A DNA stretch of 64,000 nt, from NCBI GenBank assembly GCA_023213395.1, contig CM041465.1:41857741-41921740 (forward strand), written 5' to 3'. Shown here one piece after another: positions 3,801 to 58,800 of the stretch. The stretch is from Cycas panzhihuaensis. Its lineage: Eukaryota; Plantae; Cycadophyta. The position numbers and the translations under genes were made by a program. The notes beneath the pieces are model-generated. The model made no database searches. It worked only from the letters and a program-made list of their open reading frames with translations, and was not told where the DNA came from. Each line of letters begins with the position of its first letter. Within the stretch, counting starts at the first letter, position 1.

Positions 3801-3902
3801 GTTTAAATACCTCCATTGAAATAATATTAACTCATACTAAAATAACATGACATAGTACCATGAGATTCCTCGTGTCCACCAAACACTGGCTCTGATATCA
3901 AA

Positions 3903-7200: not shown

Positions 7201-9166
7201 AGGAAGCATTATATGGATAACATTTTGGACAATGACTATAATATAAGATCTACCCATTCCCATAGAGTAAATTTTGCCCTTATGAGTTAAGTCATAGAGT
7301 CTCATGAGCCTCATACCTTTGATGAGGCCAATATATATAATAATTAGAGAAAAGTAATAGAGGAGGAATATAACTCCATATTAAAAAATGATACATGGGA
7401 ACCAGTTAACCTTCCTCCTAAAAAAAGGCTATTGGTACCAAATAGATCTATAAAACCAAGTTTAAATATGATAGATTAATTGATAAACATAAGGCTAGAC
7501 TCATTATAAAAGGATATGCCCAAAGAGAAGGCATAGACTATAGTGAAACATTTGCTCATATCACTCACATAGAAACTATTCGTATAATGTTGATTTTAGC
7601 TACACCAAATAGATGGGATGTTTACCAAATGGATGTTAAAAGTGCATTTCTTAGTGGGTATATTGAAGAAGATATCTATGTCCACCAACCCTAAGGTTTT
7701 GAATTCAAGGGAGAATAAGACAATGTATATAAACTTAAAAAGGTACTTTATGGACTAAAACAAGCATCCAGGGTATGGTATTCCTGAATCGACAAATATT
7801 TCAAAAACTAAGGATTCAAAAAATCTCAATTGGATCTAAATTTATATATCAAGATCAAAGGAGACTCTATCCTAATAGTGGGACTTTATGTAGATGAACT
7901 TGTCTATACAGGAAATGAATCCCATCTTTCATAGAAGTTTAAGGAAGATATATATAAGGAGTTTGAAATGACAGATTTGGGCTTAATGCATTACTTCTTA
8001 GATTTGGAAGTATGGCAAGATAAAGATAGCATCTTCATTTCCCAAAGAAACTATACCTTGGACTTACTCCAAAAGTTCAAAATGAATGATTACAAATCCC
8101 TAGCCATACCAGCTGAAGTTGGAATCAAGTTATCTAAAATTGATAAGTTTGCACCAGTGGATCCCATACTCTACACATAATTAATTAGTAGTCTGATGTA
8201 TCTAATATCAACATGACTAGACATTATATATGCAGTCAACGTTGTGTCAAGATTCATGTAAGATCCTAAGTCCACTCATTGGCAAGTAGCAAAAAGGATC
8301 TTACAATACTTAAAGGGCATAATAGAATATGGATTACATTATAAACCTTCACCAAATTTTAGATTAACCGGGTACATAGATTCAGATTAGGTAGACAACA
8401 TTGATGATAGAAAATCTACTTTAGGTTATACTTTCAGTTTGGGTTTAGCAGTTATAGCATGGATTGCCAAGAAATAGAATATGATTTTCCTATTTACAAT
8501 AGAAGTAGAATATAAAGTAACAATATTAGGTACATGTAAAATTATATGGTTATGATGACTCCTACAAGATCTTTAAATAGAACAAAAAGGGCCAATTAAG
8601 ATTTGGTGTGATAATCAAAACACTATTTAGATGACTTGGAATTTAGTATTTCATGGCTGAACCAAATATATTAAAATTCAACATCACTTCATTTGAGAAT
8701 TAGTTCATGCAGGCGAGATCGAGTTAGTATATTGTAGCACTAAAGGTTAAACAATTGATATATTCACCAAGCCATTAGGAAAAATCAAGTTCCATAAATT
8801 TAGAGATAAACTTGGAATTTTATACAATGGACATTATGGGGTAGAATGTTGGAATAAGGCCCCTTATGAAATGGTATGCAAGCTACCAAAGTTGACCTCG
8901 GGCCACCAAGAGCTAACTCATAGCTACCATATGTCGATCAGGTAAGTATTATATGTCATTTTATTTATTTTTTATTATTTATTACTAATGTTGGGTTGAG
9001 GTGGCCCCTCGACTCTCCAAACTATATATTTAATGGGAGTAACTCACTGGTGTTTTTTCAACACCACCTTCCTTCTATAGAGATTATTTATATTCTTCAG
9101 CAATGGATCAAGCTTTGTAATCTGCCTACTCTACTCACATCACCAATAATGTTAAAATGTCTAACA
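4260..9166 (+). mobile_element. Ty1/copia retrotransposon (5' part displaced by the 1-4259 insertion), decayed gag-PR-INT-RT-RH and 3' LTR
   Basis: gag 4593-5650; PR (NSGCSTHM, ~5770); INT (WHKRFDH, CEGC, YTPQQDG); RT (YQMDVKSAF, LYVDE); RH (WCDNQ, DIFTKPL); PPT ggggtagaa at 8838-8846; LTR 8847-9166. Confidence 0.9.
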
Positions 9167-9689
9167 TTACTTTTCCTCTAAAGAGAAAGTTAATTACAAT
9201 ATCTAGAGAAAAAAGATATCTAAATCATGCCCAAATAGGCAAGAAACCAAGGAATGGGTTTATTTTAGATCATATGATAACGGTGCCCATATTGTATATT
9301 TTAAAATTGACTCTAAACTACTCATTGTTAAAGAAGTCATCTACTATACTAAATGGGTAGAGTTGAGAAAGGTTTAAGTGATGAAAGATAAATTTTTATA
9401 ACCATAAAAATAATAATAATAATAATAATAAAATAAAGTGTATAGTTAATCTCATAAAAAATTATATTTCTTTAAAAATAATATTCTAAGAGACTATGGG
9501 ATTCAAATATGAGATCTTCCAAAATAATTTGAAACATTTGATCTCCAACAAGTACCAAAGGAGTAAAATCATTGTAAATATTTAAATGAATAAGAACATA
9601 TTTCATATTTAATATCTAAAAATAATGAAACACAAGCTATGATAAACATTTTGCCTATTCTAATTAACAAAAAGTATCCTAAATCTTTT

Positions 9690-10530
9690 TGTTAGATTTT
9701 TAAATTTAAGTATGATATCATATTACCATGTAATGAGTATATGCATCAAAAATATAATAAGTATGTATAATGAATGATTTATCTCATGAGGAATATGCAC
9801 ATATAAAGGAATAAACATGAATATAAAGTAAATAATAGATCAAATATATACCACAAAAGAGATAATAGATATATATATAAAAAACTCAATATAGAAAAGT
9901 CATAGGAGAAGGTGGAGCTCAGAATACCTCTTAGATATAAAAATACGTGCATCTCCTCTCTCAAGTTCTCAAGTAGTGTGTGTAAATATTTATAGTAATA
10001 GTCCCCTCATGAGTAGCCTATAATTTCTCTTAAGTCTTTATATCATTTAATAGGATATTTACATAGATATATATGCATTTCACATCTCTCAATATATTTG
10101 ATGAGTGGGTCCACTATCATTAACATTAAACATTATATATGTGAATAATATATTTAAATATTTACATATTCTAGCATTCCCCCTTTAATGTTTAATGTCT
10201 TTAATTTGCTATTCTCATTACCTTAGTCTTTAATGTATTTATATCTGCTATATCCTATAACCTGTGTCAATTTGTATTTATATCAATCTAAATAAAGTTG
10301 TAACCTATATCATCACCTATAACCTATAAATTTATCATCTATTAAGTTTGTCTCCTATAAATAATAACCTATAAAACATCTATAGTAAATAATTTATAGT
10401 AAACTTGTAGTCATCTATGATAAATAATGACTAACTATAAATAACCAACCTATAATATATACTAATTATTATCTATCAATATCAGAGAATATATAAAATG
10501 TTTTCCTAAACATTTTTATATCTTTACCTT
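9690..10530 (-). mobile_element. 3' LTR plus PPT fragment of an old LTR element
   Basis: ...attctagca ends at 10176, followed by ttcccccttt (minus-strand PPT). LTR start (tgttag at 9690) is uncertain. Confidence 0.45.
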
Positions 10531-13500
10531 TGTTAGAAACAATCTTTTATTAAAATCTAATGTTATATTTATGAACTTTGTTATAAACTTTATTTATTAT
10601 GTATTTAATTCTTATGTACTAAAAGTTCAGTGAAATGGATTATTTCCATTTCAATGAACTCTAGCGTATCTTTTTAAATAATTATTCAAGAATCTATGTG
10701 CAAGGGTTGACTATGTGATTACACATCCCTGGTCAAGCTAGTAGAGTAGAGAGAGAAGATGAGATCCTCATTTTCTATCTATGTATTCTTATTTTATTCT
10801 AATAATATATTACTATATTCTTAGGTGGATTTTCTTCCCTTATAGGGTTTTTTTACTTGTCAAATCTGGTGTGTATTATTTATTCACATTCAATGTATTA
10901 TGCTTATGATTTAAATTATTTTAATCCATGATACCCTCTCTTCAACATGGTATTAGAGCGTATTTACCTCCTTTGAAGTAGGTTCATGAATATATGGACA
11001 TATAAAAGTAAAGATTCTATAAATTAATTTAAACTCATATCAACTTACTTCAAGATCTACTAAAAATAAAATCATAAATGAAGACCAGCTGCTCCATTTA
11101 AAGCTTTATGGCACGAATCCTAAGGAATTATCATAATGAAGGAGCCTTGACAAGCGTACATTCATCTATAGTAAGAAGGCATATGTATTTATTCTGAGGT
11201 GGACATATACTTATAAATAACTATAAAAACTCTTATAAAGATAAACCTACATTGTTTACTAAGAAACTTGATTCAAGTGTCAACCTTCAAGGGATGATAG
11301 GATATATTTCAAAATAGATATTTGGAGTAATAACATTTAGGCCTCCTAGTTAGTGTCATCTGCATGTAGTCTTCACATAGATTGGAGGTTGCCAGCATAC
11401 CACCGCAACCATTATGCATGCATAGTTGCAACTCTTATGCAAATGCTGGAGATACAAATTCATTCTAAGTAGGAATTCAAAGCATAGCCATTCAAGAGAA
11501 GTCTACTGAAGAAGATGCCATAGAATCTAGAAGAAGGCCAAATACAAAACTTTTTAAAGGCCATAGCTCTTAAAATCATGCAGCTCCAAATGCTCTCTTC
11601 ATGTGTTGATCCTTAAAGATGACTATAGCCTTTGAGAGGAAGAGAATTCAAGGTGAAGAGTTATTTCATAGTATTTTCACATGCAAATTAAAATTAAAAG
11701 ATCATCCAAATGAAAAATATCTAACTCCAAGTAGTTACAATTACAAACACGAAGATACCATGCATTAATGGAGAGAAATGGCATAAATGTTTTATAAAAA
11801 TTTGATCCTAAAATCTCTATTTTAGACATAAATCTGATTTGGGTAAAAAAATCAATTCAAAACCCTATGCTTAGGGTTAAAATTATTCTATTTTTTTATT
11901 TTTTTATTTGGAAAGAATCCAAATAATTATTAAAACTTATTTAATGTTTTTACAATTATAAAAATATTTAAATTTACTTAATTACTATTTTAAGTCCATA
12001 ACACCTTCACTTGACAACCCCTACTCCTATCAACCCCTTATATGACCCTAATACTATTGTGAAAGGGGCTTAAACCCTTAATATTCAACCCCCCTTATTT
12101 CAAAAAATAGGTACTTGAACTATTTTTATCATAACTTCATCATCTGGAATTAGAATTTAATTCTGAAAGTTGTATCAAAATCTTAACTCAGATGCTAACG
12201 ATTTGACTAGTCACTTGATCATTTTTTATAGCATTTTGATTATGAAAACATAATGCAAAGTCAATGGAACTAACCACAACTAGGTAAGTTTAGGTATGTG
12301 ATGCAAACTAGTAATTTTTTAATAATTTTTTAATGTTATTTCTTCAATTTAATATGTTATTAATCATTTGGTAATTTAGTAAAGTAATCGCATCATTTTA
12401 CCACTTATTTTTTAATAAATTTAGTCCATTTATTTATAAGTAATTTAACTATTATTTTAATATTATTTATTGTAAATGATATTTTAATTAATGTAAATAT
12501 TTATAAATTTGATTTAATTCTCAATATATATGATTAAAAGCATAATTTCAAAACATTTGTAATTAATTTTTAATATGTTAAAAGGGTTAACTTTCCTATT
12601 TTATTCACAAAATTTCACAATTCATTTATAAATGCTTATGTATCTTTTTAAATCAATCTTATTTTTCCTTAATTATTGAAATAAAAATGTTGTGATTATC
12701 TTTATATAATATTTATGGCTTAAATATTTCAATTCTAAAGCTTATTCTTTCTTTATATTCACCTTATTATTCTTTTATTTTTTATTAAAAGAGAATCTCT
12801 GGATATAGGTTTATTTTTCCAAAATGGCAATCATGCTAGGAACAACCTCCTCCATGCAAATTCTAATTTTAAATGGCATAAATTATGCCAACTAGAAAAT
12901 CAAAGTATTTGACCAACTCAAATAACAAAATATTTGGCAGTATGTGACTAGAGAGTTTGCGAAACCTATCAACAAAATATCAGAGGCCTATATGGTTCAT
13001 CTAATGAATTGTGATGGAACCTTAGGTACTATTTTAACCTCTCGCTTACCAGATATATGTAGCCAGTTCTCTGACAAAAATAATATTGCCATGTGTATGC
13101 TATATTTAAGGGAAAATATAATAAGGTAGATATATGACAAGTAGTTATTCTTGAACAAAAAATATATGATTTGAAGCATAAAGATTCCTCTAGAGTTGAG
13201 GAATTTTTATTAAACCTTTAACTTATAAATATAGATTTAGGAAACTACATTAAATCTATAGTAAAAGAAGATGATAAGACCATAACAATAACTCATGCAA
13301 AAGATGATGATACACTTATCCATCTAGCCAATAACAAACTTCATAAATCTTTCACTCAATATAAAACTACCAGGTAGTAGTGTGAACACTCTTCTATTTT
13401 ATTTAATCAATCAACAAAGCAACTAGTTAAATACATCCAAACTGTAAAAATTCAAGATACTTATCAAGCTCTTTTTTCTAAGTCTAAGCCATAAAACAAA

Positions 13501-25169: not shown

Positions 25170-28100
25170 CATCTCTATAATTATTTAGATGTTACTCAGA
25201 TTAATAAAAGTTCTATACTTAGACATGAATCTCCTAGTATTCTTTATTGAGTGTTTGATTTGTTTATGTTATTTGTTCTTCACATTACTTCTCGGTTATA
25301 TTTTCTCTTCATTTGGTATCAGAGCTAAGGGTTTTAGTTCTATGGGAAGTCATTTGGTAAGTGAGAGCCTTGTGCAATGAACTTGAGTACGAAGATCATG
25401 GCAAGTACTACAAAGATGGAGATTGAAAAGTTCAATGGCCATAACTTAGAGCTGTGGAAGCTAAAGATGGAAGATATGCTCGTCAAAAATGATCAATGGA
25501 TTATTGTAGCAGGAACAAAGCTTACGACTATGGGTGATGAAGACTGGAAGAAGCTTGATTGAAAGGCAATTAGTTCGATAAAGTTATGCCTTTCAGACAT
25601 GGTGTTATTGAATGTTACCACAGAATCTATAACTAAAGATCTGTGGAGAAAGTTAGAGGCTTTATATCAGACAAAGTCCTTGGTTAATAAGTTATTTCTT
25701 TGAAAAAATTTGTATTCACTCAGGATGAGTGATGGAGATGTAGTTGCAGATTATCTAACTGCATTTAATACCATGGTGAGCTAACTTATTTCAATTGGGG
25801 TAACAATATCTGAAGAAGACAAGTGTATTACCCTGTTATGTTCGCTTCCTAATTCTTAGGATAATCTTGTGATGACAATTAGCAGCACAACTGCTTCTAC
25901 TCTAAAATTTGATGATGTTGTTGCTCTGCTATCAGATGAGATAAGGTGAAAATCTTCTTAGGATTATTCGAAAGAAGCATTAGTAATGAGAGGTCAACAT
26001 TGGATCGTGACTAGTAAAGACCTAGGAACAGATGGCCAAAATTGAGAGGAAAATCTAAATCTCCATGTAGAGGACCTTTGCTATGTTAGAGATGTGGGAA
26101 GGTTGTCCATATGAAGAGACAGTGTCGAGTTAAGGCAGATAAGGGAAAGTCACCTGAAGCTACTTCTTCCATAGTAGCAAAAGCCTCTGATGAAGTAGAT
26201 GGCAATGTTTATTTGGCAACCTCAAGTAAGTTGTCAAATACTAAGTCTTGGTTAATTTACTCTGATGCTTCGCTTCATGTTACTCCCTATAGGGATTAGT
26301 TTTGTGAATACACAAGGATTGATGGAGGTGAGGTATTTCTTGGGGATTATTACCCATACAAAATTATAGGTCGTAGAAGGGTAAAGGTTCGATTTGGGGA
26401 TGGAAGGGTTAAAGCTATCTTTGATATGAGTCATATTCCTGATTTGGCTATGAGTTTGTTGTCTATCAATCAATTAGGTGATACAGGAATAGAAGTGATC
26501 TTCAATAAAAATAGTTGCATAATGGTTTGAGGAGCATTGATATTAGTAAGAGGGGTCTGATTTGGAATACTATACAAGCCTGATACAAGTACAGTATGTG
26601 ATGGAAGTTGTAGTCCAACTATTATAGAAAATAGCAATAAAGAAGACGGGACTTAAATATCACTTGTTAGTAAAATTATATTATGGCATTAGAGACTGTG
26701 ACATATTGGAGGGAAAAGCCTCCATGATTTATTCTCTAAAGGTATGGCAGATGACATCTTTGGAATTAATGGCTTCTTTGATTTTGATTTCTATGAGCAT
26801 TGTGTCTATGGTAAATAAAATCGGGTCAGTTTTCCTTCAAGTTCGAAGAGAGCAATGGGTATTCTACAATCGGTGCATAATAATGTTTTTGAACCTGTTG
26901 ATGTACCCTCATTGGGTAGTTCCAAATATTTTGTTTTATTCATAGATGATTTCTTAAGAAGACATGGCTATACTTTCTCAAGTAGAAATATGAAGTCTTC
27001 AATAAATTCAAAGAATTCAAGGCCTTGGTCGAGAATCAGAATGATAGGTGGATCAAGGTACTGAGGATTAATAATATAGGTGAGTTTTACTTAAAAGAAT
27101 TTGAGCAGTTCTATAAGTAGTGTGGGATAGCAAGGCAAAAGATAATTCCCTATACACCACAGCAGAACGAAGTTGTTGAAAGGATGAATATGACCTTGTT
27201 GGAGAGATTGAGGAGTATGCTCAGAGTTACTAGATTAGAGAAGAAATTCGGGGTGAAGGTTATGATGACTGCAAGCTACTTGATCAACAGATCATCGATA
27301 ACTACCTTAGTATACAAAACACCTGAAAAAGTGTGGTCTGGTAAGAAACCATCTCTTGGTCATCTTAGAGTTTTTGGTTTTGAAGCTTTTGTGCATGTTC
27401 CTAAACAGCAAAAGACTAAGCTTGATTTTAAAGAACAAAAGACTATTTTTACTGGCTATGGTAATGGTGTTAAAGGATATAAACCTTATAACCTTGAAAC
27501 ACAAAAGACTATGTATATTCATGATGTTATCTTTAGAACGAAGTCTAATTCTCTAAAGCAGGATGAAGAACCAAATGAGGAACACTCTAAGAAGGTACAA
27601 TTTGAAGTAAGGGATGAAAATTCTGCATCAGAATATGAGTTAGTTAAAGAGGAAGAACCAGTTGTAGAGGTAGCTCAATCTCAAGAACCCCACATCTTGA
27701 GGAGATCAACTCGTTAAAGAAGACAGCCTGACAGGTATATTTCTGAAGACTTTTGTTTCTCCTCTTATATTTTATCTACTATAAAGGATGATCTAGGTAC
27801 TATTCGGGAGGCTCTAGAGTCAAAAGAGAGCCAACTCTAGATGAAGGCCATGCAGGAAGAAATGATGGCCTTGGACAAAAATAATACGTGGGATTCGGTG
27901 GATCTGCCTAGTAGCAAAAAACTTATTGATAACAAATGGATCTTCAAGAAGAAGTTTTGAGTAGATGGTACTGTGGAAAAAAGTACAAGGCTTGCCTAGT
28001 AACAAAAGGCTATTCCTAAGTCAAGGGAATAGATTTTGGTGAGGTATTTTCTCTTGTTGCAAAAGTTATTTCAATTAGATTTTTATTAACTATAACAGCT

Positions 28101-29306
28101 GCCTATGACCTTGAGGTGGATTAAATGGATGTGAAGACTGTATGTCTTTACAGTGACCTCGAGGAATAAATTTATATGTTGCAGCTTGAAGGGTTTGAAG
28201 TTGCAGAAAAGGAGGATATAGTGTGTAGGTTAAAGAAGTCATTATACGGCTTGAAACAATCACCAAAGATGTGGTATCAAAAGTTTGATTCACATATATT
28301 GGCGGATGGCTTTGTGTGCAGCAAAGTAGATCATTGTATTTATTATAAGCAAGTTGGTGATCATTTTGTTATTCTAGCTTTATATGTTGATGACATACTT
28401 TTAGTTAGTAACAATAAAAGAATGAACCAACTTATGAAAGACTAATTGGAATCTCACTTTGAGATTAAGGACTTTGGTGCTGCACATTTTATTTTAGACA
28501 TTGAGATTAAAAGGCATAGGAGAAATAAGAAGATTTAGCTTAGCCAAAGATAATACATTAAAATAATATTACAACGATTTAGGTTACAAGATAGTAAACT
28601 GAAAGAAAATAATGTGATGGAGAGCATGGCAGAACATAAACAAATAATCACAGATCAATACATCATTATTACATAAACAAGAATCATTTGTATTCAATTC
28701 ATTGTTGTGAAAAGAGTATTATAAATGTCTAAAATGAAGGTGATGTCTAAAGACACCAAGGTTGCACAGCCCTCAGAATATATAGTTTGGGGAAGGAGGG
28801 AAACTCCTCAACCCCTGAAATTTAAATAACAATAAAATATAACTTAACTTAAATCAAATTAATCTTACCTTATACTTACCTACATATATAAGTATCCACA
28901 TGTGTAAATTGATAGTAGTGAGGTGTGAACTCCTGGTTGGAAGGTGGGAGTGGGATGATGAGCATTAACCCCAACATTCTCCCCCTTAATGGTCATCACG
29001 AACAATGTCTTCTCTTTAATCTTGTGGAATTTATACTTGAAAAAAACTTTAAAAATTTGTCTTGTAGCTTGATCTTTATTAACTTGCTTCAAATTTATTG
29101 CAATGTGTGTCTTCTCCATTGAATGGTGTAAAAATACTGTAAGTAAATTAAGCTTGATTCAAATGTGTATGTGTAGCTGTAATTTTGACTTTATCAACTA
29201 GAACTTTAAGAAAACTTTAAACTTAAATTTTGTCTTCTGAAAACTTTATGTTGTGAACAACTATCATATCATCATATCTCTCCCCCTTAAATGGAGGATC
29301 AAGTTT

Positions 29307-29702
29307 TTATGCAATAAGATGATCATACATTTGACTTGAATCTTCCTTGGTCTTTTCATTAGAATCCACCTGTTCTGTCACATGTCTCACATACTCAATA
29401 AAATCAATATTAAATTCATTGAGGGTATCTCTCCTATAAGTAGAAATCAATATGTCCCACATGGATTTGGAAGTTGTTAATTCGTAAACTCTAGAAAACA
29501 CTTCATCATCTATAGTACAAAATAATAAAGCTAACGCTTCATTGTATTTTTTAATGTTTTCCTTAATACTAACATCATAGTCATCTTGTACGTATTTCTA
29601 AAGATTATATGTAATAAAATAATTTTGCATAGTTTGATACCATAGTGAAAAATTATAGCCATCAAATATAGGAAATTGTACTTGATCAAGATTGATTGCC
29701 AT
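29307..29702 (-). pseudogene. truncated copia-type gag
   Basis: MAINLDQVQFPIFDGYNFSLWYQTM...SKSMWDILISTY, with one internal stop. Confidence 0.8.
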
Positions 29703-31170
29703 TTTATCAAGAACTTTAGTACATAAAAAAAAATTTGATTTTACTAAGTTAAAAAACTTAATAAATGATAAACTTATAAGATATAATTTTAGATAAAATT
29801 TGAAATAAAAATAAATATATGAGTAAATTCAAATATAACTAAGATCCTTTTAATTATGTAAATCTTAATTAAAACATTGGTGATAAAAAATAAAGAAGTC
29901 TTAACCTTTTATTTTTTAAATGTTGGGGTATGTCAAATGCTCAAATTTAGTAGCTTCAAAGTTGTACTAAACAAAGTTAGAATAGCCTGAAATTATACCA
30001 AAGTGAAGATCAATGAAAAAACTATTCAATGGAACTGACCGTTTTGAAAATGGTTTCCTACAATTCAATATTTGAGTGAACAAAGGAGACAATCCTCTTT
30101 TTTAGGCTTAACAGGAGTATGGGGCTCAAAATATTATAAAAATTCTAATAAAATACTTATAAAATATTACAAAATGATCAATTATAGTTTAGAAGACTAC
30201 TCAATATATTTTTTAATTAAAAACTTTGAGAAATAATATATAAAAATTGTGTAATAATGATAGATTAGAGACTATGATATACCTCTACTTTAATAGATTT
30301 GAAAATCTAAAAAAATACTTTAAAACTTATAAATAATAATGTCAGTTCAAAGAGGAGTGAGTCAGCTTCCAAATGAAACTAGCAAAACTGAATTCTGATG
30401 TAAAATAAAAAAGTTATAATGAAAATGACAATAAGTACTTTTATGGTAAAATGTTTAAAAAGTGTTAAAGTGTCACTTTCAGTGATTAAAATAATGATTA
30501 AAATAAATTTTAAAAAATAAAATAAATAAATGGTAATAAAGTTTATAAACAATAGATAACTGCAGAATAGATATGGGTGGAAAATAGTTTCTCGGTGATA
30601 AAATATAATCTGATGAAAAATAGATTTTATGAAAATAGTTTTAAAATGTTCTAAAAATCAATGCCTAGCTTTGGATTGACTAAAACTTGGTCAAATCAGC
30701 TCCAAATAGGTCATATGACCAGCCAAAATCATACCTCAAAAAATTCTAGATGCAATGGAATATGTTCTGTCAGAAACTGATAACCCAGTCAAAAGTTATG
30801 GCAAAAATTTGCTAAGTACCCTATGTGAAATAAAAAAATTTAAAAAAATAAAAGGAAAAAATTATTTATAAAAGTTGTTGGCCCCTTTTGATAAGCTATG
30901 GTCACGTGTTGGGTACATAGGGCTAGGGGATAAATGTTAAAAGGGGCTTATATCCCTTAAACCTTAGAATTGAAAGTATATATAATTAAATTTAATTTTT
31001 AAATAAACTTTAGAAAGAAATATTTAAAAATTAAATATTTTGAATCAAAAAGAGATTGTCGCTTCATTGCCGCCATCTGAGATGTCGTTGTTGCTGCACC
31101 TATCACCACCACAACCATGGAGACGCCGCTGTTATAGGGGGGAACAGAGAATGACCGCTCAGATGAACTT

Positions 31171-31231
31171 GGGGTGGTGGCGCAGTTAGTTAACACATAG
31201 GTCTCATAGCTTACTGAGCGATCCTGAGGTC
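31171..31231 (+). pseudogene. 5' two-thirds of an intron-containing elongator tRNA-Met(CAU), decayed
   Basis: ggggtggtggcgcagttagttaacacataggtctCATa[gcttactgagcg]atcctgaggtc matches the recalled plant tRNA-Met(e) GGGGTGGTGGCGCAGTTGGCTAGCGCGTAGGTCTCATA-intron-ATCCTGAGGTC. T-arm and 3' acceptor strand are absent. Confidence 0.85.
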
Positions 31232-31650
31232 TTCATCACATGGTGCAATATTCTTAAACGTGTACCAAATAGTGCCCTATGGCTTCTCAAGTTCCCTACA
31301 GCTGGAGAGAGTAGATTGTGGGCATTTGTTGCTGCATAGGGTGTCTAACCTGATCAAATTATATTCACAAATATTGCTGCAAAGAATGAGCATATAGGGT
31401 GGCTAATCTTTTCCTTGATACACCATTATGCAATGCTCATACCACAGGCACTGATGTTCTCTGGGTTGGTCTACATGTTGTAGCTCTTCCTCTAGAGAAG
31501 ATGGCTACACGAGTAGTTGGATCTATTTGTTTGGCCACAAGTCTTAGAGAAGAGATGGTTGCCAGCAATATGCAAGAGTATGAGGGGAAGGTTGTTAGTC
31601 TTACTCAATGCCCTGCAAGGCTTCAAGCACTTACAACCAAACTTAGAATG
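31220..31650 (+). pseudogene. SEC: Uninterrupted fragment of O-GlcNAc transferase (SECRET AGENT-type, GT41 C-terminal domain)
   Basis: [26 protein letters not shown]...PDQIIFT...LFLDTPLCNAHTTGTDVLW...LPLEKMATRV. Two stops and a frameshifting deletion near 31398. Confidence 0.9.
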
Positions 31651-31653
31651 TAA

Positions 31654-31936
31654 TGTCAAGTGAATGGGAGGCTACAAGGCTTGAGGCATTGCTTTGGATG
31701 TCATTTCTTTTGGAAAGGCATCGCACAGAGGTTGCAAGAGGAGATTTTATTATGTTTTTCAACCAAATATTTGATGCACTATGTAAACTCTTAGTAGATT
31801 TAGATGCTAATATGTAGAGCGTTGTACATCTTTTTTATCGCCTTGTTAAGGATATTGTTACAAAAAGTGATAAGTTCATCATTGAAGAATTCATACCATT
31901 GCTAAGGGAACAAATGAACGTTCTCAATCCTTATGT
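31654..31936 (+). pseudogene. VAC14: VAC14 fragment with exon order scrambled
   Basis: SSEWEATRLEALLWMSFLLERHRTE | VARGDFIMFFNQIFDALCKL..DANM*S..HL..RLVKDIVT.SD.F.IEEFIPLLREQMNVLNPY. Confidence 0.85.
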
Positions 31937-32178
31937 AATATAGTTGAGGATCCAGCACGGACTGTAGAATATACCATTGACAGAACTGTTATAAGCATCC
32001 CCAGTATAAGCATACCTGTGGACACAGCTTTCACATGATTATGAAGACCATTGCATTCATAGTCCCTAGGTTCACTTGAAAGCCCATTGTAGCACAAGTA
32101 CGTGCAGTATAGAGATATTATAGAAGCTGGCAAAAGACTGTCATTCACCTTAGGATGGAGTGCAATGACTGCAAATGT
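31936..32178 (-). pseudogene. Serine incorporator (SERINC/TMS family) fragment
   Basis: FAVIALHPKVNDSLLPASIISLYCTYLCYNGLSSEPRDYECNGLH...VYSTVRAGSST. Confidence 0.88.
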
Positions 32179-32254
32179 AATGTAATACTTAAATGTAATG
32201 TAATGCTTGATGTAATGTAATGTAATGTTTGAATGTAATGTAATGCTTGATGTG
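32174..32254. repeat. TGTAA-based minisatellite, about four (A)ATGTAATGTAATGCTTG units
   Basis: Read directly from the sequence. Confidence 0.9.
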
Positions 32255-32310
32255 TATGGGAAAATGGGTAATTCTTGGAACAGAGTTTTATTGTTATTTG
32301 TAAAGATAAA

Positions 32311-32616
32311 AGAGCAAGGGATAATGTGAAGTTTTTAACAACTATTAAGTGTTATTTCAAGATAATTTCTAGTGAACCTTTGCTAAGGGTTCTTGAAATA
32401 ATAAGTCCTATGATGAATGCTCTTTGTATGGTTTGGATTCTTTCATATTACTATTCAGATGATTCTAACATGGGCTATCTTATAGAGCGTATAGCACATC
32501 AGATTGTAGAAAGAGTCTCAGAAGAGATAAATCTCAAGATTTTATTCAAGATGCTTGCTAATGATGCTGAATGTAAATTAAATATGGCAAAAAATGTATT
32601 GGACTCTTGGAGGTTT
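32311..32616 (+). pseudogene. Axonemal dynein heavy chain N-terminal tail fragment (DNAH10/inner-arm I1-alpha-like)
   Basis: ARDNVKFLTTI..YFK...PMMNALCMVWILS.YYSDDSNMGYLIERIAHQIVERV...INLKILFK resembles the recalled DNAH10 EAKDNVRFLST...AMMSALRMVWIISRHY..DERM..LMERIAWEIAERV. Confidence 0.8.
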
Positions 32617-33119
32617 TAAAAATAACTTACAACAATAAAGTGGCTTCAGTGCATAGAAACATACAATCATAGAGAAAATATAATACATAGATATTTTCTT
32701 TAGCAATTCTTTTATATATACCAAATAAATAAAATGTATATAAAAGTAGACTTTCCTATTCCCCTTTTTCTTGTTTTCTATCTACTTTTGACAAAGTAGG
32801 TTGAAGAAGTCTTGCCTGGAATATATGCTAGATCTTTTAAATATATTAATGAAAATAAATCAATAAAATAAGAAGTATATATATTTGTATCTAAAATCTT
32901 TCAAATATATTGGAGTAGATGTATCACAAAACCAAGAAATATATATGAGTTTAAATCTAAAAATAAATAAAAAAGAACTTGGTAAGCAGTTGTAGTAGAT
33001 TTGTAGCAGGTTGACTTCCAAAGATGAGATCTTCTTCCATACAAATCAAAGCTTTAAACAAATTTCTCTAATAGGCAGATCTACTATAATATATGACTTA
33101 TTGGGCTAAATATGCACTA

Positions 33120-33500
33120 AAAACTTACAGATCTAAAAAAAAACTTGAAAAAATGGTCAAATATGTGATAAAATATATAGAGATAAAGAATATATATAAC
33201 AGATTTAAAAAAAACTTGAATAAATATTATAGATCTAAAATAAATATTACAGATCTAAAGTAAATATTACTGATATGTAGGCAATATTACAGATCTGAAA
33301 CAAATATTACAGATATAAACAAAATAAACTAGAAAAATGGTAAAATATTTGATAAAATAAGCAGATCTGAAGAATATATAGCACATCTGAAGAAAACTTT
33401 GAATAAATATTGTTTGCAACTGTGCTTCTGCACAGATCTAAAAAAAGTATTAGATAAATAAACAAAATATGCTTGAAAAATGTCAAATATTTGATAAAAA
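33120..33500. repeat. Degenerate tandem repeats (aaatattacagatctaaa, ~20 bp) in the element leader
   Basis: Repeated (C)AGATCT units; clearest at 33220-33320. Confidence 0.7.
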
Positions 33501-36500
33501 TATATAAAATTTATTGATAAAACCTCTTATAGAGTGATAGAAACTTGATATTTGTTGTTTATAGCTATGCACCTACACAAATCTGAAGAAAATCTAAAAT
33601 ATATTTGTTATATCACAAGTAAAACTCAAGAATAATCAAATATGATAAAAAATAAAAGAAACTTGCTAATAAACTTTGCAGAAAATAAATATGACCAATA
33701 TTTACTAACTTGTGAGTAGATCTACTTTAAATACTAATAAATCTTCTATCTTCTTCAAAAAACTTCAAATGGAGATGTAACAGCCCAACAATTTCTACTC
33801 TAATATCAAATGAAGGAAAATAATGTGATAGAGAACAAGGTAGAACATAAACAAATAATCATAGATCAATACATCATTATTACATAAACAAGAATCCTTT
33901 GTATTCAATCCATTATTGTGAAGAGAGTATTACAAATGTCCAAAATCAAGGCAGTGTCTAAAGACACCAGGGTTGCACACCCCTCAAAATATATAGTTTG
34001 AAGGAAGAGGGAAACTCCTTAATCCCTAAAATTTAAATAACAATAAAATATAAGTTAACTCAAATTAACTTAAATCAAATCAAACTTACCTTATACTTAC
34101 ATATACATGCGAGCACCCACATATGTAAATTGATGAGAGTGAGGTGTGCACTCCTAGTTGAAAGGTAGGAGTGGGGTGATGAGCATTAACCCCAACATAA
34201 ACCAATTAATGTTCCTCTTCTTGCTAGTTTAAAATTATCAGTTGAATAATGCCCAAAGACTCACCAAGAAGTTGAAGACATGGAATTTATCCCTTATACT
34301 AGTATTATTGGTAGCCTGATGTATATGATGGTTTATACTCAACCAGATATTACCCATGCAGTGGGAGTAATTAACAGGTATATGTCAAATCCAGGCAGGG
34401 AGAATTAAATGGCTGTGAAAAGGATTTTTAGATATCTGTGAGGTACATCAGACTATGGAATTTTCTATCAAGGAGATCCGATGGAGAGTAGAATAGTAAA
34501 TCCAAGAGGTTTTATTGATGTTGATTAGACTAGAGATCTTGACAGCAAAAGATCTACAAGCGGATATGTTTTTACCCTTTGTGATGGCGCAGTTAGTTGG
34601 ATGAGTAAAAGACAACAAGTTGTGATACTTTCTAGCACAGAAGAAGAGTATATGGTAGCTACTTATATGTACAAAAGAAGTGGTTTGGTTAGAGAGATTA
34701 TACACAGATATTGACTTTAAGCAGGATGTTGTGAGGATAGATCGCAATAGTCAAAGTGCAATCTACTTAGTAAAGAACCCTATTTTTTATACCCGGTCAA
34801 AGCATATTAATGTGTAGTTCCATTTTGTAAGGGAAATGGTTCAAGATCACAAGGTGGACTTGCAGAAGATTGCTACACAAGAGAATGTTACAAACTCATT
34901 GACTAAGATTGTTGGCACAGAAAAATTTAAATGGTATAGAATTGCAATGAGTCTTTGTGATTTTGATATTCAATAGTTGTGTATGCAGGTTTTCTTATAA
35001 AGTGTTCAACAAGTGGGAGATTGTTAAATATGTTGAACACTTTGCAAGTGTTACATAGGTATAGGCGTTACACCCAAACCCTTTGTGGGATCTCAGGGCC
35101 CGTTGTAGGGCCCCCGACTGGGGGGTTTGGGGGGGTAGTAGCCCTCGAGGTGGGGGTTTGAGGATGGGAGCTCCTAAGAAAAAACAATTGGTGTCTTATA
35201 GGGGTCTTTGTCAACCCAATAGTTTATGCCCATTGTATTGTAAAACCGCAAGGCGGTATCTTGTAATGTTATGTCTATATATTCTTATGTGACGGCACAT
35301 GTAATATATGATACGAAGATGATGGTGGGATCATGGATGAGTCGAGAAGAAGAGTTGGAGTTCATCTCTGTTATTCTTTAGTTATTTCTCAGATTAATAA
35401 AAGGTTTATGCTTAGACCTGAATCTCTTAGTGTTCTTTGTTGAGTATTTGATTTGTTTATGTTATTTGTTCTTTGCATGGTTTAGAGTTCTATTATCACA
35501 TTGCTTCTTGGTTATATTTTCTCTTCACATTTCTCCTCTTATTTGGATCAGGTCTAGAATTCCTATCTATGAATAAGACCTAAAGGTACTTCCCTACTTA
35601 AATTCTAAGAAAAATAACTATCCATAAGCCTGAAGGCATATTATTTTGGTATCAAAGCCAAGTTGTCTATCTACAATATCTAATTACTTAAAGATTTTAG
35701 GGTTTGCATAATTATATGAATAGTCGTACAACCTCCATGTGGAAATATACAAACCAAAAAAAAAAGTGCTTAGAATTTGATAAAAATTTAACAAAATGTA
35801 TGCAATCATACAGACACCATTATATCCCAAAGGACCATCATGAAAATCTCACTTGAAAAGTAAAAAAATAAAGAAAAACTTGGATGTTAGTTTGAGGCTT
35901 CAACTATAATTTTCTCTAAAATTTCTCAAGCAATCTCTTTAAAACTAGTCTTAATCTCTTCTTTTTTACTAGATCTATCTTTAAGTATAAATTTGTTATA
36001 TTAAATTTTATGATTCCTTTCATACGAGCAAAAAGTGTTTTCAAATCCTAGTCACCCATTTCTATTTTGGAGTCATTTTCTCGAAAACCAGACATCCAAT
36101 TAAAAAACTGACTACAAATTTAGATATGCAACTAAAAAGCTTTGATTTGAGCCTTTTTCTTTTTTAATCACACAATTCCATATAACTATATAACCATGCA
36201 AAATCATACCTTCAAATAGAAATTTAATTTTTTTAATAATTTTTTTTCTCTTCTAAATTTCTAGTCAAAAAAATAAAAACTCTTTATGACTTGAGATACA
36301 TATATAGGAAGGGGAATATATAGCTATATCTAGTCATAAATCCTTCATTAGCAAGTATACCTCGCCTAAATATTTCTTATAAAATGAGCATATTGTTATA
36401 AGCCCTCTTTATAAGTAAGTGTATCCCTATAAGCAAGCGTATCTCAAATATACCATGTCTCATGATCAAGAGGATCAGTCCCAACTAGACATCACCAAAC

Positions 36501-52856: not shown

Positions 52857-55800
52857 ATCCTCAGCAAAGAATTAAATCATTAATGCATCGCATTTAATAT
52901 GTTCAGCTTGTCATTCAGTCAGAAAGGTTATCATACAGTCAAAAAGGTATATGCTTTGACACAAATACCCCTGGCAACGAATACATCAAAAAATATATGC
53001 CTATGAATCATGGAGCCCATGGAAATGAAAACTTGAGAAAACGTGATGAATCAGAATGCCAAAACAGAAGAAAATGAATTGAAAAAATCGTTAACTTCAC
53101 ACACTAAAGCGACCTACTGTGGAGCTTCTATAGGAAAATCATACGGAAAAATCAACCTTTCAATTGCAATTCCAGTTAAAATGAAGAGTCCTATTAGCGA
53201 GACGCCGGAGACACTGTAAAATGACAAGCAATGCTAGCTTGAGTGCTTGGTGCAGGAACCACATTAGCTGGTGCTAAGGATATCACTTAAAGGGTACTTA
53301 AGAACTTAATTAATAGTTAGGTATACAGACGACATATCCTACATGAAACACCTATGTGTCCTACATACAACAAACTAAAATTTGTATAAATATGTAAGTC
53401 ATTCTTTATAGAAATCAATAAAGGGATAAGTTATTCATTCTTCCTCTTACCTAACTTAAGTCTAAAGTTCCTATCTATGAACAAAACCTAAAGATACTTC
53501 CCTACTTGAATTCTAAGAAAAAGAACTATCCACAAGTCTGAAAGCACATCATCGTGACTACTTTTATACCTCTATGTTAAATTGTGATTGTTTTTTTGCA
53601 TGATTGTCATGGCAGATTTTTATTACAAATACATAATACTACTTAACAAGGTTATTGATTGTTGAAAGATCATAACTCAAGGGATGCAGCATTCCATAGC
53701 ATGCAATTGTTAGAAATGAACAAGTGATCATGATCACACTGTGTTTGAAGTGAGAGCCAAGTCATTGTGTTGTAGTCTTTCCTCGCATATGGTTGTATGT
53801 GCAAATGATCTTGATTATTAATGCTCTAACATGATTAACTTTGTGTGTTTTGATTGTTGTGTATTCCAATATCATGACTGATGCCATGAAAAGTGTGGCA
53901 TACAAATTGTACAACCTGGCACGAAAGCACTTCAAGAATACAGCATACCATCATGGGCATTCCATTGAAATGAATCTCATAAAACATTCATTCGGTCTTT
54001 GTATAGTCTTTCCTTATATATGGTTGTATGTGCAAATGATCTTGATTATTAATGCTCTAACATGGTTAACTTTGTGTGTTTTGATTGTTGTGCATTCCAA
54101 TATCATGATTGATGGCATGAAAATTTTGACATACAAATTGTACAACCCGGCACTGAAGCACTTCAAGAATATAGCATACCATCATGGGCATTCCATTGAA
54201 ATGAATCTCATAAAACATTCATTCACATCATAGGCTACTTATGCATAGTTATGTACATCCTTCAACCATGGTGCGGGCATTATCATTGTCAATAGTCTGG
54301 GATTGATTATTTTGGTTAATCAACCATAGAACAAATGTGCATATTCAACGTAGTCCTATATGATTAATACTTTTGTTGAGGAAAATTGTTTTAGGGTGCT
54401 TGTTTGAGATCTACAATGATATGCATACACACACACACACATATATTGTAAAAAGGTTGTAACTTATAAAAAAAAGTATTGATGAAAAAGTTACAACTTG
54501 AATTGGCTTTGTGATTGGACTTCAATGCTTGAATAATCGCATTTATGTTATATGGATAATCTTATTTATATTATATAGGTGGACACATCCTTCAAATCAT
54601 GGAAAAAGGAACGCTTTCAGAGACATTTTTCAGGGTAAAATATTAGCATTCCCAAATAAAATATTCTCTACAGCTCATTATTTTATTTAATTTTAAAAAC
54701 TGGGATCAACACCAAGTTGATGAAACACAAGAATTACATGATATGATACAAACTTGTAGATCTCCATCCTTTTTTTGAGATTTTTATTTAACAAAACTGT
54801 TGACCCATGTATCCATATTAAGTAAAAGCAGTAGTTTATTCAATGACATCAAGTTGGATTTCGTAACCATACTTCATCCTCAAGAAAGAATTAAATTATT
54901 AATGCATCGCATTTAATATGTTCACTTGTCATTCGATCGAGAAAGGTTATCATACAACAAAAAGGTATATGCTTTGACACAAATACCCACAACGAATACA
55001 TCAAAAAATATATGCCTATGAATCATGGAGCCCATGGAAATGAAAACTTGAGAAAGCGTGATGAATCGAATGCCAAAAGCGAAGAAAATGAATTGAAAAA
55101 TCGTTAACTTCACACACTAAAGCGACCTGGGTGGAGCTTTATAGGAAAATCATACGGAAAAATCAACCTTTCAATTGCAATTCCAGTTAAAATGAAGAGT
55201 CCTATTAGCGAGACGACAGAGACATCGTAAAATGACAAGCAATGCTAGCTTGAGTGCTTGGTGCGGGAACCACATTAGGCGGTGCTCAGGATATCACTTA
55301 AAGGGTACTTAAGAACTTAATTAATAGTTAGGTATACAGACGACATATCCTACATGAAACACCTATGTGTCCTACATACAACAAACTAAAATTTGTATAA
55401 ATATGTAAGTCATTCTTTATAGAAATCAATAAAGGGATAAGTTATTCATTCTTCCTCTTACCTAACTTAAGTCTAAAATTTCTATCTATGAACAAAACCT
55501 AAAGATACTTCCCTGCTTGAATTCTAAGAAAAAGAACTATCCACAAGTCTGAAAGCACATCATCGTGACTACTTTTATACCTCTATGTTAAATTGTGATT
55601 GTTTTTTTGCATGATTGTCATGGCGATTTTATTACAAATACATAATACTACTTAACAAGGTTATTGATTGTTGAAAGGTCATAACTCAAGGGATGCACCA
55701 TTCCATAGCATGCAATTGTTGGAAATGAACAAGTAATCATGATCACACTGTGTTTGAAGTGAGAGCCAAGTCATTGTGTTGTAGTCTTTCCTCGCATATG

Positions 55801-58800
55801 GTTGTATGTGCAAATGATCTTGATTATTAATGCTCTAACATGATTAACTTTGTGTGTTTTGATTGTTGTGTATTCCAATGTCATGACTGATGCCATGAAA
55901 AGTGTGGCATACAAATTGTACAACCCGGCACAAAAGCACTTCAAGAATACAGCATACCATCATGGGCATTCCATTGAAATGAATCTCATAAAACATTCAT
56001 TCGTCTTTGTATAGTCTTTCCTTATATATGGTTGTATGTGCAAATGATCTTGATTATTAATGCTCTAACATGGTTAACTTTGTGTGTTTTGATTGTTGTG
56101 CATTCCAATATCATGATTGATGGCATGAAAAGTGTGACATACAAATTGTACAACCCGTCAAGCACTTCAAGAATATAGCATACCATCATGGGCATTCCAT
56201 TGAAATGAATCTCATAAAACATTCATTCACATCATAGGCTACTTATGCATAGTTATGTACATCCTTCAACCATGGTGCGGGCATTATCATTGTCAATAGT
56301 CTCGGGATTGATTATTTTGGTTAATCAACCATAGAACAAATGTGCATATTCAACGTAGTCCTATATGATTAATACTTTTGTTGAGGAAAATTGTTTTAGG
56401 GTGCTTGTTTGAGATCTACAATGATATGCATACACACACACACACATATATTGTAAAAAGGTTGTAACTTATAAAAAAGTATTGATGAAAAAGTTACAAC
56501 TTGAATTGGCTTTGTGATTGGACTTCAATGCTTGAATAATCGCATTTATGTTATATGGATAATCTTATTTATATTATATAGGTGGACACATCCTTCAAAT
56601 CATGGAAAAAGGAACGCTTTCAGAGACATTTTTCAGGGTAAAATATTAGCATTCCCAAATAAAATATTCTCTACAGCTCATTATTTTATTTAATTTTAAA
56701 AACTGGGATCAGCACCAAGTTGATGAAACACAAGAATTACATGATATGATACAAACTTGTAGATCTCCATCCTTTTTTTGAGATTTTTATTTAACAAAAC
56801 TGTTATGCTGACCCATGTATCCATATTAAGTAAAAGCAGGTAGTTTATTCAATGCACATCAAGTTGGATTTCGAACCATACTTCATCCTCAAAAAGAATT
56901 AAATTATTAATGCATCGCATTTAATATGTTCAGCTTGTCATTCGATCGAGAAAGGTTATCATACGATCAAAAGGTATATGCTTTGACACAAATACCCCTG
57001 GCAACGAATACATCAAAAAATATATGCCTATGAATCATGGAGCCCATGGAAATGAAAACTTGAGAAAAGCGTGATGAATCGAATGCCAAAGCGGAAGAAA
57101 ATGAATTGAAAAAATCGTTAACTTCACACACTAAAGCAGCCTATTTGGTGGAGCTTTATAGGAAAATCATACAGAAAAATCAACCTTTCAATTGCAATTC
57201 AGTTAAAATGAAGAGTCCTATTAGCGAGACGACAGAGACATCAGAAATGACAAGCAATGCTAGCTTGAGTGCTTGGTGCAGGAACCACATTAGCTGGTGC
57301 TCAGGATATCACTTAAAGGGTACTTAAGAACTTAATTAATAGTTAGGTATACAGACGACATATCCTACATGAAACACCTATGTGTCCTACATACAACAAA
57401 CTAAAATTTGTATAAATATGTAAGTCATTCTTTATAGAAATCAATAAAGGGATAAGTTATTCATTCTTCCTCTTACCTAACTTAAGTCTAAAATTCCTAT
57501 CTATGAACAAAACCTAAAGATACTTCCCTGCTTGAATTCTAAGAAAAAGAACTATCCACAAGTCTGAAAGCACATCATCGTGACTACTTTTATACCTCTA
57601 TGTTAAATTGTGATTGTTTTTTTGCATGATTGTCATGGCAGATTTTTATTACAAATACATAATACTACTTAACAAGGTTATTGATTGTTGAAAGGTCATA
57701 ACTCAAGGGATGCACCATTCCATAGCATGCAATTGTTGGAAATGAACAAGTAATCATGATCACACTGTGTTTGAAGTGAGAGCCAAGTCATTGTGTTGTA
57801 GTCTTTCCTCGCATATGGTTGTATGTGCAAATGATCTTGATTATTAATGCTCTAACATGATTAACTTTGTGTGTTTTGATTGTTGTGTATTCCAATGTCA
57901 TGACTGATGCCATGAAAAGTGTGGCATACAAATTGTACAACCCGGCACGAAAGCACTTCAAGAATACAGCATACCATCATGGGCATTCCATTGAAATGAA
58001 TCTCATAAAACATTCATTCAGTGCTGTATAGTCTTTCCTTATATATGGTTGTATGTGCAAATGATCTTGATTATTAATGCTCTAACATGGTTAACTTTGT
58101 GTGTTTTGATTGTTGTGCATTCCAATATCATGATTGATGGCATGAAAAGTGTGACATACAAATTGTACAACCCGTCACTGAAGCACTTCAAGAATATAGC
58201 ATACCATCATGGGCATTCCATTGAAATGAATCTCATAAAACATTCATTCACATCATAGGCTACTTATGCATAGTTATGTACATCCTTCAACCATGGTGCG
58301 GGCATTATCATTGTCAATAGTCTGGGATTGATTATTTTGGTTAATCAACCATAGAACAAATGTGCATATTCAACATAGTCCTATATGATTAATACTTTTG
58401 TTGAGGAAAATTGTTTTAGGGTGCTTGTTTGAGATCTACAATGATATGCATACACACACACACACATATATTGTAAAAAGGTTGTAACTTATAAAAAAAA
58501 GTATTGATGAAAAGGTTACAACTTGAATTGGCTTTGTGATTGGACTTCAATGCTTGAATAATCGCATTTATGTTATATGGATAATCTTATTTATATTATA
58601 TAGGTGGACACATCCTTCAAATCATGGAAAAAGGAACGCTTTCAGAGACATTTTTCAGGGTAAAATATTAGCATTCCCAAATAAAATATTCTCTACAGCT
58701 CATTATTTTATTTAATTTTAAAAACTGGGATCAGCACCAAGTTGATGAAACACAAGAATTACATGATATGATACAAACTTGTAGATCTCCATCCTTTTTT

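What the first reader, a model, noticed from the sequence alone, without database searches (positions are those of the whole stretch)
31648..32303. Captured fragments are delimited by ATGTAAT, the unit of the adjacent array (repeat-spacer-like layout)
Seen: ATGTAAT lies at the SEC/VAC14 junction (31648-54), the VAC14/SERINC junction (31933-39) and the SERINC/array junction (32175-81). TGTAA also occurs just before the dynein piece (32299-303). Inference: the element's TGTAA minisatellite acts as a docking site where reverse transcriptase leaves and re-enters via microhomology. Host fragments would accumulate as spacers between repeat units, analogous to but not homologous with CRISPR acquisition.
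Basis: partly seen in the sequence, partly recalled or inferred. Interest (0 to 1): 0.82.

Follow-up and report, generated by a model that had tools for sequence, protein, structure and literature searches.

The report
Host mRNA scraps stitched into retrotransposon
A decayed plant retrotransposon carries a chain of pieces from five host genes joined at short overlaps, and the little repeat taken for its docking site is a stuttered copy of the start of one of those pieces, likely left when the copying enzyme slipped on that piece and returned to it.

Summary
ATGTAAT is at the three places named, more often than chance. The interpretation only partly holds. The cassette lies in a non-autonomous Copia-type LTR element (28600-34197, minus strand, TSD TAAAC). 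The 'TGTAA array' is seven partial copies of that start, so the motif is host-derived, not an element minisatellite. The TGTAA at 32299 lies inside the PPR piece; the real PPR/dynein join is an 8-nt overlap without the motif. The motif marks 3 of 6 located junctions. Only at SEC/VAC14 is it an untemplated filler (6 nt, part of an 11-nt match to the array); at the other two the donors supply it. The SEC piece lacks four conserved introns, so the source was RNA. Four of five donors lie antisense to the element, which plain first-strand switching does not explain. Sister copies exist. Verdict: a variant of known LTR-mediated retrocopy chimeras (Bs1 type) with an unusual stutter-and-return scar. 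Reuse of the array as a landing pad remains possible (about 20%) but is not shown.

The parts
28595..28599 (.). Target-site duplication TAAAC (left), in the RT region of an older Copia element
   Evidence: host element domains
28600..28976 (-). 3' LTR (TG...CA)
   Evidence: 85% identical to the other LTR, K2P 0.138 (computed on 28597-28977 against 33808-34198)
28977..28987 (-). Polypurine tract
29310..29690 (-). Broken, truncated Copia gag; about 0.7 kb from gag start to PPT leaves no room for pol
   Evidence: PF14223 E 3e-7 and 7.7e-7; left end approximate
31050..31219 (.). Piece X: GC-richer stretch of unknown origin; left end approximate
   Evidence: no Pfam hit in 6 of 6 frames; no protein hit for 2 frames tried; joined to SEC in sister contigs (X3 record 17, X4 record 25)
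31220..31647 (+). SEC (O-GlcNAc transferase) mRNA piece, spliced across four intron positions, 10-nt deletion; antisense to the element
   Evidence: PF13844; homologues named SEC; donor ends; introns
31648..31653 (+). 6-nt filler ATGTAA supplied by neither donor; part of an 11-nt match to 32231-32241
31654..31732 (+). VAC14 mRNA, downstream piece (placed first)
   Evidence: same RNA contig as the next piece, 513 letters apart (record 9; joints)
31729..31937 (+). VAC14 mRNA, upstream piece; 4-nt overlap AGGT with the previous piece; ends in ATGTA (Tyr-Val codons)
   Evidence: PF12755 E 1e-4; donor ends
31938..32177 (-). SERINC mRNA piece (clean alignment from 31942); the only named donor in sense with the element
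   Evidence: PF03348 E 5e-20; donor ends
32174..32236 (+). Stutter array: seven prefixes (5, 13, 5, 17, 5, 13, 5 nt) of the PPR piece, 3 mismatches, all G>A or C>T
32237..32320 (+).
   Evidence: 3088-nt RNA contig, 6 differences in 84 nt, PPR codons continue on both sides
32313..32613 (+). Dynein heavy chain piece (DHC_N1); 8-nt overlap AGCAAGGG with PPR; right end approximate
   Evidence: PF08385 E 6e-19; upstream dynein flank from 3 DNA contigs (loose end 32313)
33219..33319 (.). The element's own 20-bp tandem repeat (5.1 copies), unrelated to the cassette junctions
33798..33810 (-). Decayed initiator-Met primer binding site
   Evidence: compared with the host Copia's site at 25313
33811..34197 (-). 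5' LTR (TG...CA)
34198..34202 (.). Target-site duplication TAAAC (right)

Best explanation
The stretch is a chain of host gene pieces (SEC, VAC14 twice, SERINC, PPR, dynein) inside a non-autonomous Copia-type LTR element, and its TGTAA array consists of repeated copies of the first 5-17 bases of the PPR piece, likely made when a reverse transcriptase jumping between co-packaged host RNAs at short overlaps stuttered on that piece's end and likely returned to it between other templates. Shown: the element's anatomy and direction, donor identities and ends, the PPR origin of the array, overlaps of 4, 4 and 8 nt, one 6-nt filler matching the array, sister copies. Shown by proxy: splicing of the SEC piece (intron positions from other plants). 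Inferred: the enzyme is the helper Copia's RT; because SEC, VAC14, PPR and dynein are antisense to the element's RNA, most jumps would have happened while the element's plus strand was being made (leaving the dynein-bearing template at the 8-nt overlap, copying PPR RNA to a broken 5' end, re-priming at AATG/ATGT there), with SERINC copied from a cDNA or added in an ordinary first-strand switch. The finished chimera then spread by retrotransposition and decayed by C>T/G>A change; it is likely non-functional.
For: PPR RNA contig matches 32237-32320 and continues in frame on both sides, so the array's last unit is PPR coding sequence. The array tiles into 7 PPR prefixes with 3 transition mismatches, against 6 for a pure satellite model and at least 4 for 270 of 270 other AATGT sites. 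Every unit restarts at the same PPR base. Overlaps AGGT (4), AATG (4), AGCAAGGG (8); chance for 8 nt about 2e-4, for 4 nt about 0.02. SEC piece spans residues 2-147 of P0021 without a break where 21 of 29 genomic plant loci printed break at all four positions and the other 8, partial, break at those they cover. Filler at 31648: 11-nt match to 32231-41; 30 of 1432 six-nt cores in the cassette (6 of them this one) reach 11 nt. LTRs, TSD, PBS, PPT and gag all point to the minus strand. Sister contigs 10% diverged bridge X/SEC, SERINC/array, array/PPR and PPR/dynein. 66 of 121 differences from the RNA run are window T for donor C or window A for donor G.
Against: Orientation: no single direction of synthesis can use mRNA templates for all five donors; SERINC or the other four need cDNA or antisense templates. 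Plus-strand jumps onto mRNA were not found described in the passages read. The same scars (fillers, iterative re-priming, both orientations) are hallmarks of polymerase theta repair (PMC10923293, passages). The return at VAC14/SERINC has no untemplated base and cannot be told from a direct join. No listed contig bridges the SEC/VAC14 or VAC14/SERINC joins, so their state in sister copies is unknown. The host's own SEC intron positions were not seen. The RNA status of run X24 is a guess by the tool, and it is of another organism label than the best DNA holder.
Confidence: 0.5

Rival explanations
1. The array arose once as a stutter on the PPR piece and then served as a landing pad in later retrotransposition cycles: SERINC (and perhaps VAC14) were inserted into it afterwards, RT leaving and re-entering at array units.
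For: SERINC is the one donor in the orientation that first-strand switching predicts, and both of its ends match array units (donor AATGC on the left, AAATG on the right). VAC14 is also bounded by array-like letters (TG, ATGTA). A fixed return site is on record for Drosophila BLASTOPIA retrocopies (PMC5131818, passage). Array length differs between sisters (one 40-nt period fewer in an X2 contig).
Against: No joint skipping VAC14 or SERINC among the joints listed (12 rows in table 5 and 12 in table 5c; 3 rows; about half of each DNA run read, tables cut). Depth is higher over SERINC's right half, array and PPR than over VAC14 and SEC, which does not suggest SERINC came last (weak: depth is no copy number and includes other SERINC copies). 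Three of six junctions lack the motif.
Confidence: 0.22
2. The cassette was patched together at a double-strand break in an element copy by polymerase theta-mediated end joining, using cDNA fragments as templates; RT supplied only the cDNAs and the later spread.
For: Iterative microhomology-primed extension, fillers copied from nearby or from unrelated molecules, and fillers in both orientations are described for plant TMEJ (PMC10923293, passages and a figure legend). Explains mixed orientation and the stutter without special pleading.
Against: All identified donors are coding mRNA pieces of 79-428 nt; no genomic, repeat or organelle shard was identified among them (X is unidentified), although repeats dominate this genome. 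Long pieces from five transcripts at one break are easier to picture in a particle that packs RNAs (inference).
Confidence: 0.2
3. The extra motif hits are coincidence plus decay: donors join directly, and C>T/G>A change turns donor letters into ATGTAAT.
For: At 31933 the motif is VAC14's ATGTA plus SERINC's letters; at 32175 SERINC supplies ATG. Decayed SERINC copies that do not run into the array also read ATGTAAT there (X2 loose end 32177, 4 contigs). The filler's local null is only about 2%.
Against: Six bases at 31648-53 come from neither donor, and the 9-mer occurs nowhere else in the window outside the array. Two hits at junctions have P below 3e-4.
Confidence: 0.05
4. As first written: the element owns a TGTAA minisatellite that is a general docking site, and host pieces pile up as spacers.
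For: Motif at three boundaries. Each LTR holds one ATGTAAT, on the opposite strand.
Against: The array's interruptions spell PPR codons M-L-D and its end is PPR mRNA. Summed depth over the array is 10-29 (X2) and 95-116 (X3) against 260-710 and 70-580 over the dynein start and about 3,000-12,000 over backbone 32802-32955. One joint seen in 2 of 3 DNA runs skips the whole cassette (31016 to 32848) with a single A between and no array (table 5c; side lengths not shown, so only a hint).
Confidence: 0.03

Closest known systems
LTR-mediated retrocopies (Tan et al. 2016, PMC5131818; passages read)
   Same: Partial spliced mRNA pieces inside an LTR element; microsimilarity at 25 of 29 Drosophila junctions (median 6 bp), de novo bases at 3; multi-gene chimeras including a four-gene mouse case; further rounds of retroposition; a fixed return site in BLASTOPIA.
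   Different: Here four of five donors are antisense to the element, one mRNA is scrambled, and the recurring site is a stutter product of a captured gene, not element sequence.
Maize Bs1 (seen only as described in the review PMC13317346, passages, and in PMC5131818)
   Same: Plant LTR element carrying pieces of three host genes.
   Different: Bs1's pieces form a translated hybrid ORF; this cassette has stops, mixed orientation and no such ORF.
Gene-fragment capture by gymnosperm TEs (Bao et al. 2026, PMC13477047; abstract, passages and section 12 read)
   Same: Capture is very common (about 400,000 fragments per genome; 13.68% of carrier TEs hold two or more), Copia and Gypsy examples.
   Different: In the parts read there is no junction-level analysis, orientation or stutter array. 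Its supplements were not opened and may hold such examples.
Polymerase theta templated insertions / filler DNA in plants (PMC10923293, passages)
   Same: Iterative re-priming, short fillers copied from nearby ends, both orientations, microhomology.
   Different: Described for DNA donors at induced breaks; here the donors are spliced RNA pieces in a retroelement.
TR-GAG and other non-autonomous LTR elements (name recalled, not from a call)
   Same: LTRs, PBS, PPT and gag without pol.
   Different: Long 5' region filled with host pieces; family membership not tested.
CRISPR arrays
   Same: A short repeat recurs between foreign pieces at 3 sites.
   Different: Repeat is host-derived and younger than the first capture; half the joins lack it; lengths vary fivefold; no dedicated integrase or function.

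Membership tests
Non-autonomous Ty1/copia LTR retrotransposon | Two LTRs with TG...CA ends and a 5-bp target-site duplication | tested here: met
   28600-28976 and 33811-34197, TAAAC on both sides
Non-autonomous Ty1/copia LTR retrotransposon | PBS after the 5' LTR and PPT before the 3' LTR on one strand | tested here: met
   Both on the minus strand; PBS decayed by two transitions against the host Copia's
Non-autonomous Ty1/copia LTR retrotransposon | Copia-type gag, no pol | tested here: met
   PF14223 on the minus strand; about 0.7 kb to the PPT; 5 of the 12 frames of the two non-cassette internal stretches were scanned, none with a pol domain
LTR-mediated retrocopy chimera (Tan 2016 / Bs1 type) | Intron loss in the captured piece | tested here: met
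   By proxy: four intron positions of plant SEC genes lie within the contiguous piece; the host's own gene was not seen
LTR-mediated retrocopy chimera (Tan 2016 / Bs1 type) | Microsimilarity at the switch points | tested here: met
   4, 4 and 8 nt at three donor/donor joins, 1-3 nt imperfect at VAC14/SERINC, filler at SEC/VAC14
LTR-mediated retrocopy chimera (Tan 2016 / Bs1 type) | Microsimilarity between element and mRNA at the two outer joins | not testable with these tools
   No cassette-free copy could be fetched (no genome held); X's donor unknown
LTR-mediated retrocopy chimera (Tan 2016 / Bs1 type) | Donor in sense with the element RNA, as the first-strand switch model implies | tested here: not met
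   1 of 5 named donors (SERINC) in sense; so filed as a variant, not a plain member
LTR-mediated retrocopy chimera (Tan 2016 / Bs1 type) | Further retroposition of the chimera | tested here: met
   Contigs about 10% diverged bridge four joins; their LTRs were not seen
Repeat-spacer (CRISPR-like) array | Repeat belongs to the element and is present at the empty site | tested here: not met
   Array is PPR-derived
Repeat-spacer (CRISPR-like) array | Every acquired piece bounded by the repeat; similar lengths | tested here: not met
   3 of 6 located joins; pieces 79-428 nt
Pack-MULE / Pack-CACTA / Helitron DNA capture | DNA-transposon termini around the cargo and introns kept | tested here: not met
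   No inverted repeat around the cassette among the 25 of 39 pairs shown; LTRs instead; introns absent
Polymerase theta templated insertion | Short filler copied from a nearby end, flanked by microhomology | tested here: met
   31648-53; not specific to this enzyme
Polymerase theta templated insertion | Dependence on the enzyme | not testable with these tools
   Needs genetics

The most novel reading that the evidence does not exclude
A retrotransposon made its own capture hotspot out of cargo: a stutter on one captured mRNA left a short repeat that offers many re-entry registers, and later host RNAs were slotted between its units over successive rounds, mostly by jumps during plus-strand synthesis. 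That would be a self-seeded, heritable landing pad for gene capture.
Probability: 0.2. Interest if true: 0.65.

Novelty: new variant of a known kind. Interest (0 to 1): 0.36.

Why it matters
How plant LTR elements pick up host gene pieces is usually inferred from counts, not junctions. This locus keeps a base-by-base record of the copying: where the enzyme left each template, where it slipped, and that it came back to the same piece. The mostly antisense cargo does not fit the standard first-strand switch and points to plus-strand jumps or to repair with cDNA; either can be tested genome-wide in a giga-genome with hundreds of thousands of captures. As a single decayed locus it has no sign of function.

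Tried and rejected
No whole genome is held, so full sister copies could not be aligned. Run search: no RNA holder listed for the element; this says nothing on expression. Piece X stayed unidentified (Pfam 0 of 6 frames; 2 frames searched, no hit); its other frames were not searched by sequence or by protein-language features. Two DNA contigs match only the array with foreign flanks; their flanks match nothing in the window beyond chance, so they were set aside as unrelated microsatellites, not empty sites. The VAC14/SERINC motif also has 10-nt matches to each LTR on the opposite strand and to four unrelated places: rejected as chance in AT-rich DNA. The filler could also be a copy of the VAC14 upstream piece's own end (ATGTA), a 5-nt match only; not preferred. 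The GDPD hit at 60763 was checked as a second cassette and is an ordinary intron-bearing gene. No dynein transcript was laid from the RNA-like run; no inference drawn. Earlier findings: nothing returned. Alignment A1 was not used. PMC12786077 (passages) held nothing relevant.

Full report
Setting. The window is AT-rich plant DNA with nested Copia remnants. The finding lies inside an LTR element at 28600-34197: LTRs with TG...CA ends, 85% identical (K2P 0.138), a TAAAC duplication on both sides, inserted in the RT region of an older Copia element. PBS, PPT and a broken Copia gag all lie on the minus strand, so the element reads right to left and the cassette sits between PBS and gag. There is no room for pol. 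A dynein heavy chain among the donors suggests a plant lineage with swimming sperm (established knowledge; the host was not identified). No genome is held. Nineteen of 24 listed runs hold part of the element, none more than 37% of its words.

Observation. The four motif positions are as stated. The 7-mer is not enriched in the window (34 against 30.4), but two hits at non-array joins are unlikely (3e-5 to 3e-4 for at least 2 of an assumed 6 joins), and the 9-mer AATGTAATG occurs only in the array or PPR start (7 times) and at 31647.

Donors. Contigs of run X24 (RNA by the tool's guess) were laid on the cassette twice. SEC runs 31220-31647 and its donor goes on with other letters, so 31648-53 is not SEC. 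VAC14 is in two pieces in reversed order: 31654-31732 comes 513 letters (counted to 31695) after the end of 31729-31937 in one contig, and the two overlap by AGGT. SERINC lies on the minus strand, 31942-32177, with a closest donor at 13 differences in 209 nt. A 3088-nt contig matches 32237-32320 with 6 differences and continues in PPR reading on both sides; the peptide finds 18 proteins at E up to 0.001, 5 of 5 tested carry Pfam PPR, and it is 66% identical to one of them. The dynein piece starts at 32313, since 3 DNA contigs continue upstream from there with dynein-like codons, giving an 8-nt overlap with PPR. A 170-nt piece X left of SEC was not identified.

Junctions. Of six located joins, three carry the motif. 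X/SEC, VAC14/VAC14 and PPR/dynein do not. At SERINC/array the donor supplies AAATG, and sister contigs keep six more donor bases (table 4 and records 8, 19, 20), so the join is a 4-nt overlap with the PPR start. At VAC14/SERINC, ATGTA is VAC14's Tyr-Val codons and the rest is SERINC after C>T and G>A change; undecayed, the join would read like the first nine PPR bases, which may be a return to that template or a direct join. At SEC/VAC14 six bases come from neither donor and belong to an 11-nt match with 32231-41; 30 of 1432 six-base cores in the cassette reach that length, 6 of them this one. TGTAA at 32299 is PPR codons.

The array. 32174-32236 tiles into seven prefixes of the PPR piece (5, 13, 5, 17, 5, 13, 5 nt) with three mismatches, all G>A or C>T; a pure satellite needs six, and 270 of 270 other AATGT sites need four or more. 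The self-overlaps AATG and ATGT in the PPR start explain the unit lengths as slippage. One X2 contig has SERINC joined to an array one 40-nt period shorter and then PPR (joint 32177 to 32214, 64 letters on the short side), so part of today's length is later duplication. The array therefore cannot predate the PPR capture.

RNA origin and spread. The SEC piece covers residues 2-147 of a plant SEC (P0021). Of 67 loci returned, the script printed the 29 with a best segment of 75% or more and at least two segments; 21 of 29 break at four positions within that span, and 8 partial ones break at those they cover (many loci are near-duplicates, and none is known to be the host's). Sister contigs about 10% diverged bridge X/SEC, SERINC/array, array/PPR and PPR/dynein, and two X2 contigs join the VAC14 pieces. 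No listed contig bridges SEC/VAC14 or VAC14/SERINC; the tables show 32 of 6,664 and 24 of 282 pieces, and about half of each DNA run was read. Summed depth is far higher over dynein and the backbone than over the array and the left pieces, hinting that dynein was captured first and is in many copies; depth is no copy number. A joint from 31016 to 32848 with one A between, in X1 and X3, may be a cassette-free relative without array (table 5c; unverified).

Mechanism. First-strand synthesis on the element RNA moves left to right and can take up only mRNAs that end in sense with the element: SERINC alone. SEC, VAC14, PPR and dynein fit an enzyme making the element's plus strand, right to left, and jumping onto mRNAs: out of the dynein-bearing template at the 8-nt overlap, along PPR RNA to its broken end, slipping there, and returning to it before VAC14 and before SEC. 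I give this 0.5. Later insertion into the array (0.22) and polymerase theta patching with cDNA (0.2) fit nearly as well; chance (0.05) and an element-owned docking satellite (0.03) fit poorly.

Comparison. Multi-gene chimeras in LTR elements with microsimilarity, a few de novo bases and even a fixed return site are published (PMC5131818, passages; Bs1 as described in PMC13317346, passages), and capture is very common in gymnosperms (PMC13477047, abstract, passages, section 12; supplements not opened). Iterative fillers are known from plant end joining (PMC10923293, passages). Seven searches of the held library (listings only, apart from the five papers named in this report) turned up no account of a cargo-derived stutter array reused at other joins; the library lacks most subscription papers, so this is weak. 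Verdict: new variant of a known kind, interest 0.36.

Noticed in passing
window 59300-64000, minus strand: Intron-bearing host gene with a GDPD domain (PF03009, E 5e-20), running off the window's right end.
   Followed up: partly
window 52857-59340: About 3.2 tandem copies of a 2.0-kb unit, 96-97% identical, each with an inner 230-bp duplication, ending at the 3' end of the GDPD-like gene. Recent duplication or assembly artefact.
   Followed up: no
window 31016 to 32848: Joint in two DNA runs that skips the whole cassette with one base between: possible cassette-free relative (table 5c).
   Followed up: no
window 32237-32319: An X1 contig holds the PPR piece twice in tandem with 11 more PPR bases upstream of the second copy: a sister or other copy with a longer PPR start.
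   Followed up: no
window 32313-32650: The dynein piece has DNA depth of 200-1100 against 3-8 for single contigs, so a dynein-derived stretch seems to ride in a high-copy family.
   Followed up: partly
window 31717-31729: Two X2 contigs join the VAC14 pieces about 13 nt earlier, at a short direct repeat: another switch point or a later deletion.
   Followed up: no
window 25171-35527: The older Copia element that hosts the insertion, with gag, protease, integrase and RT remnants, itself among further nested LTR elements.
   Followed up: partly
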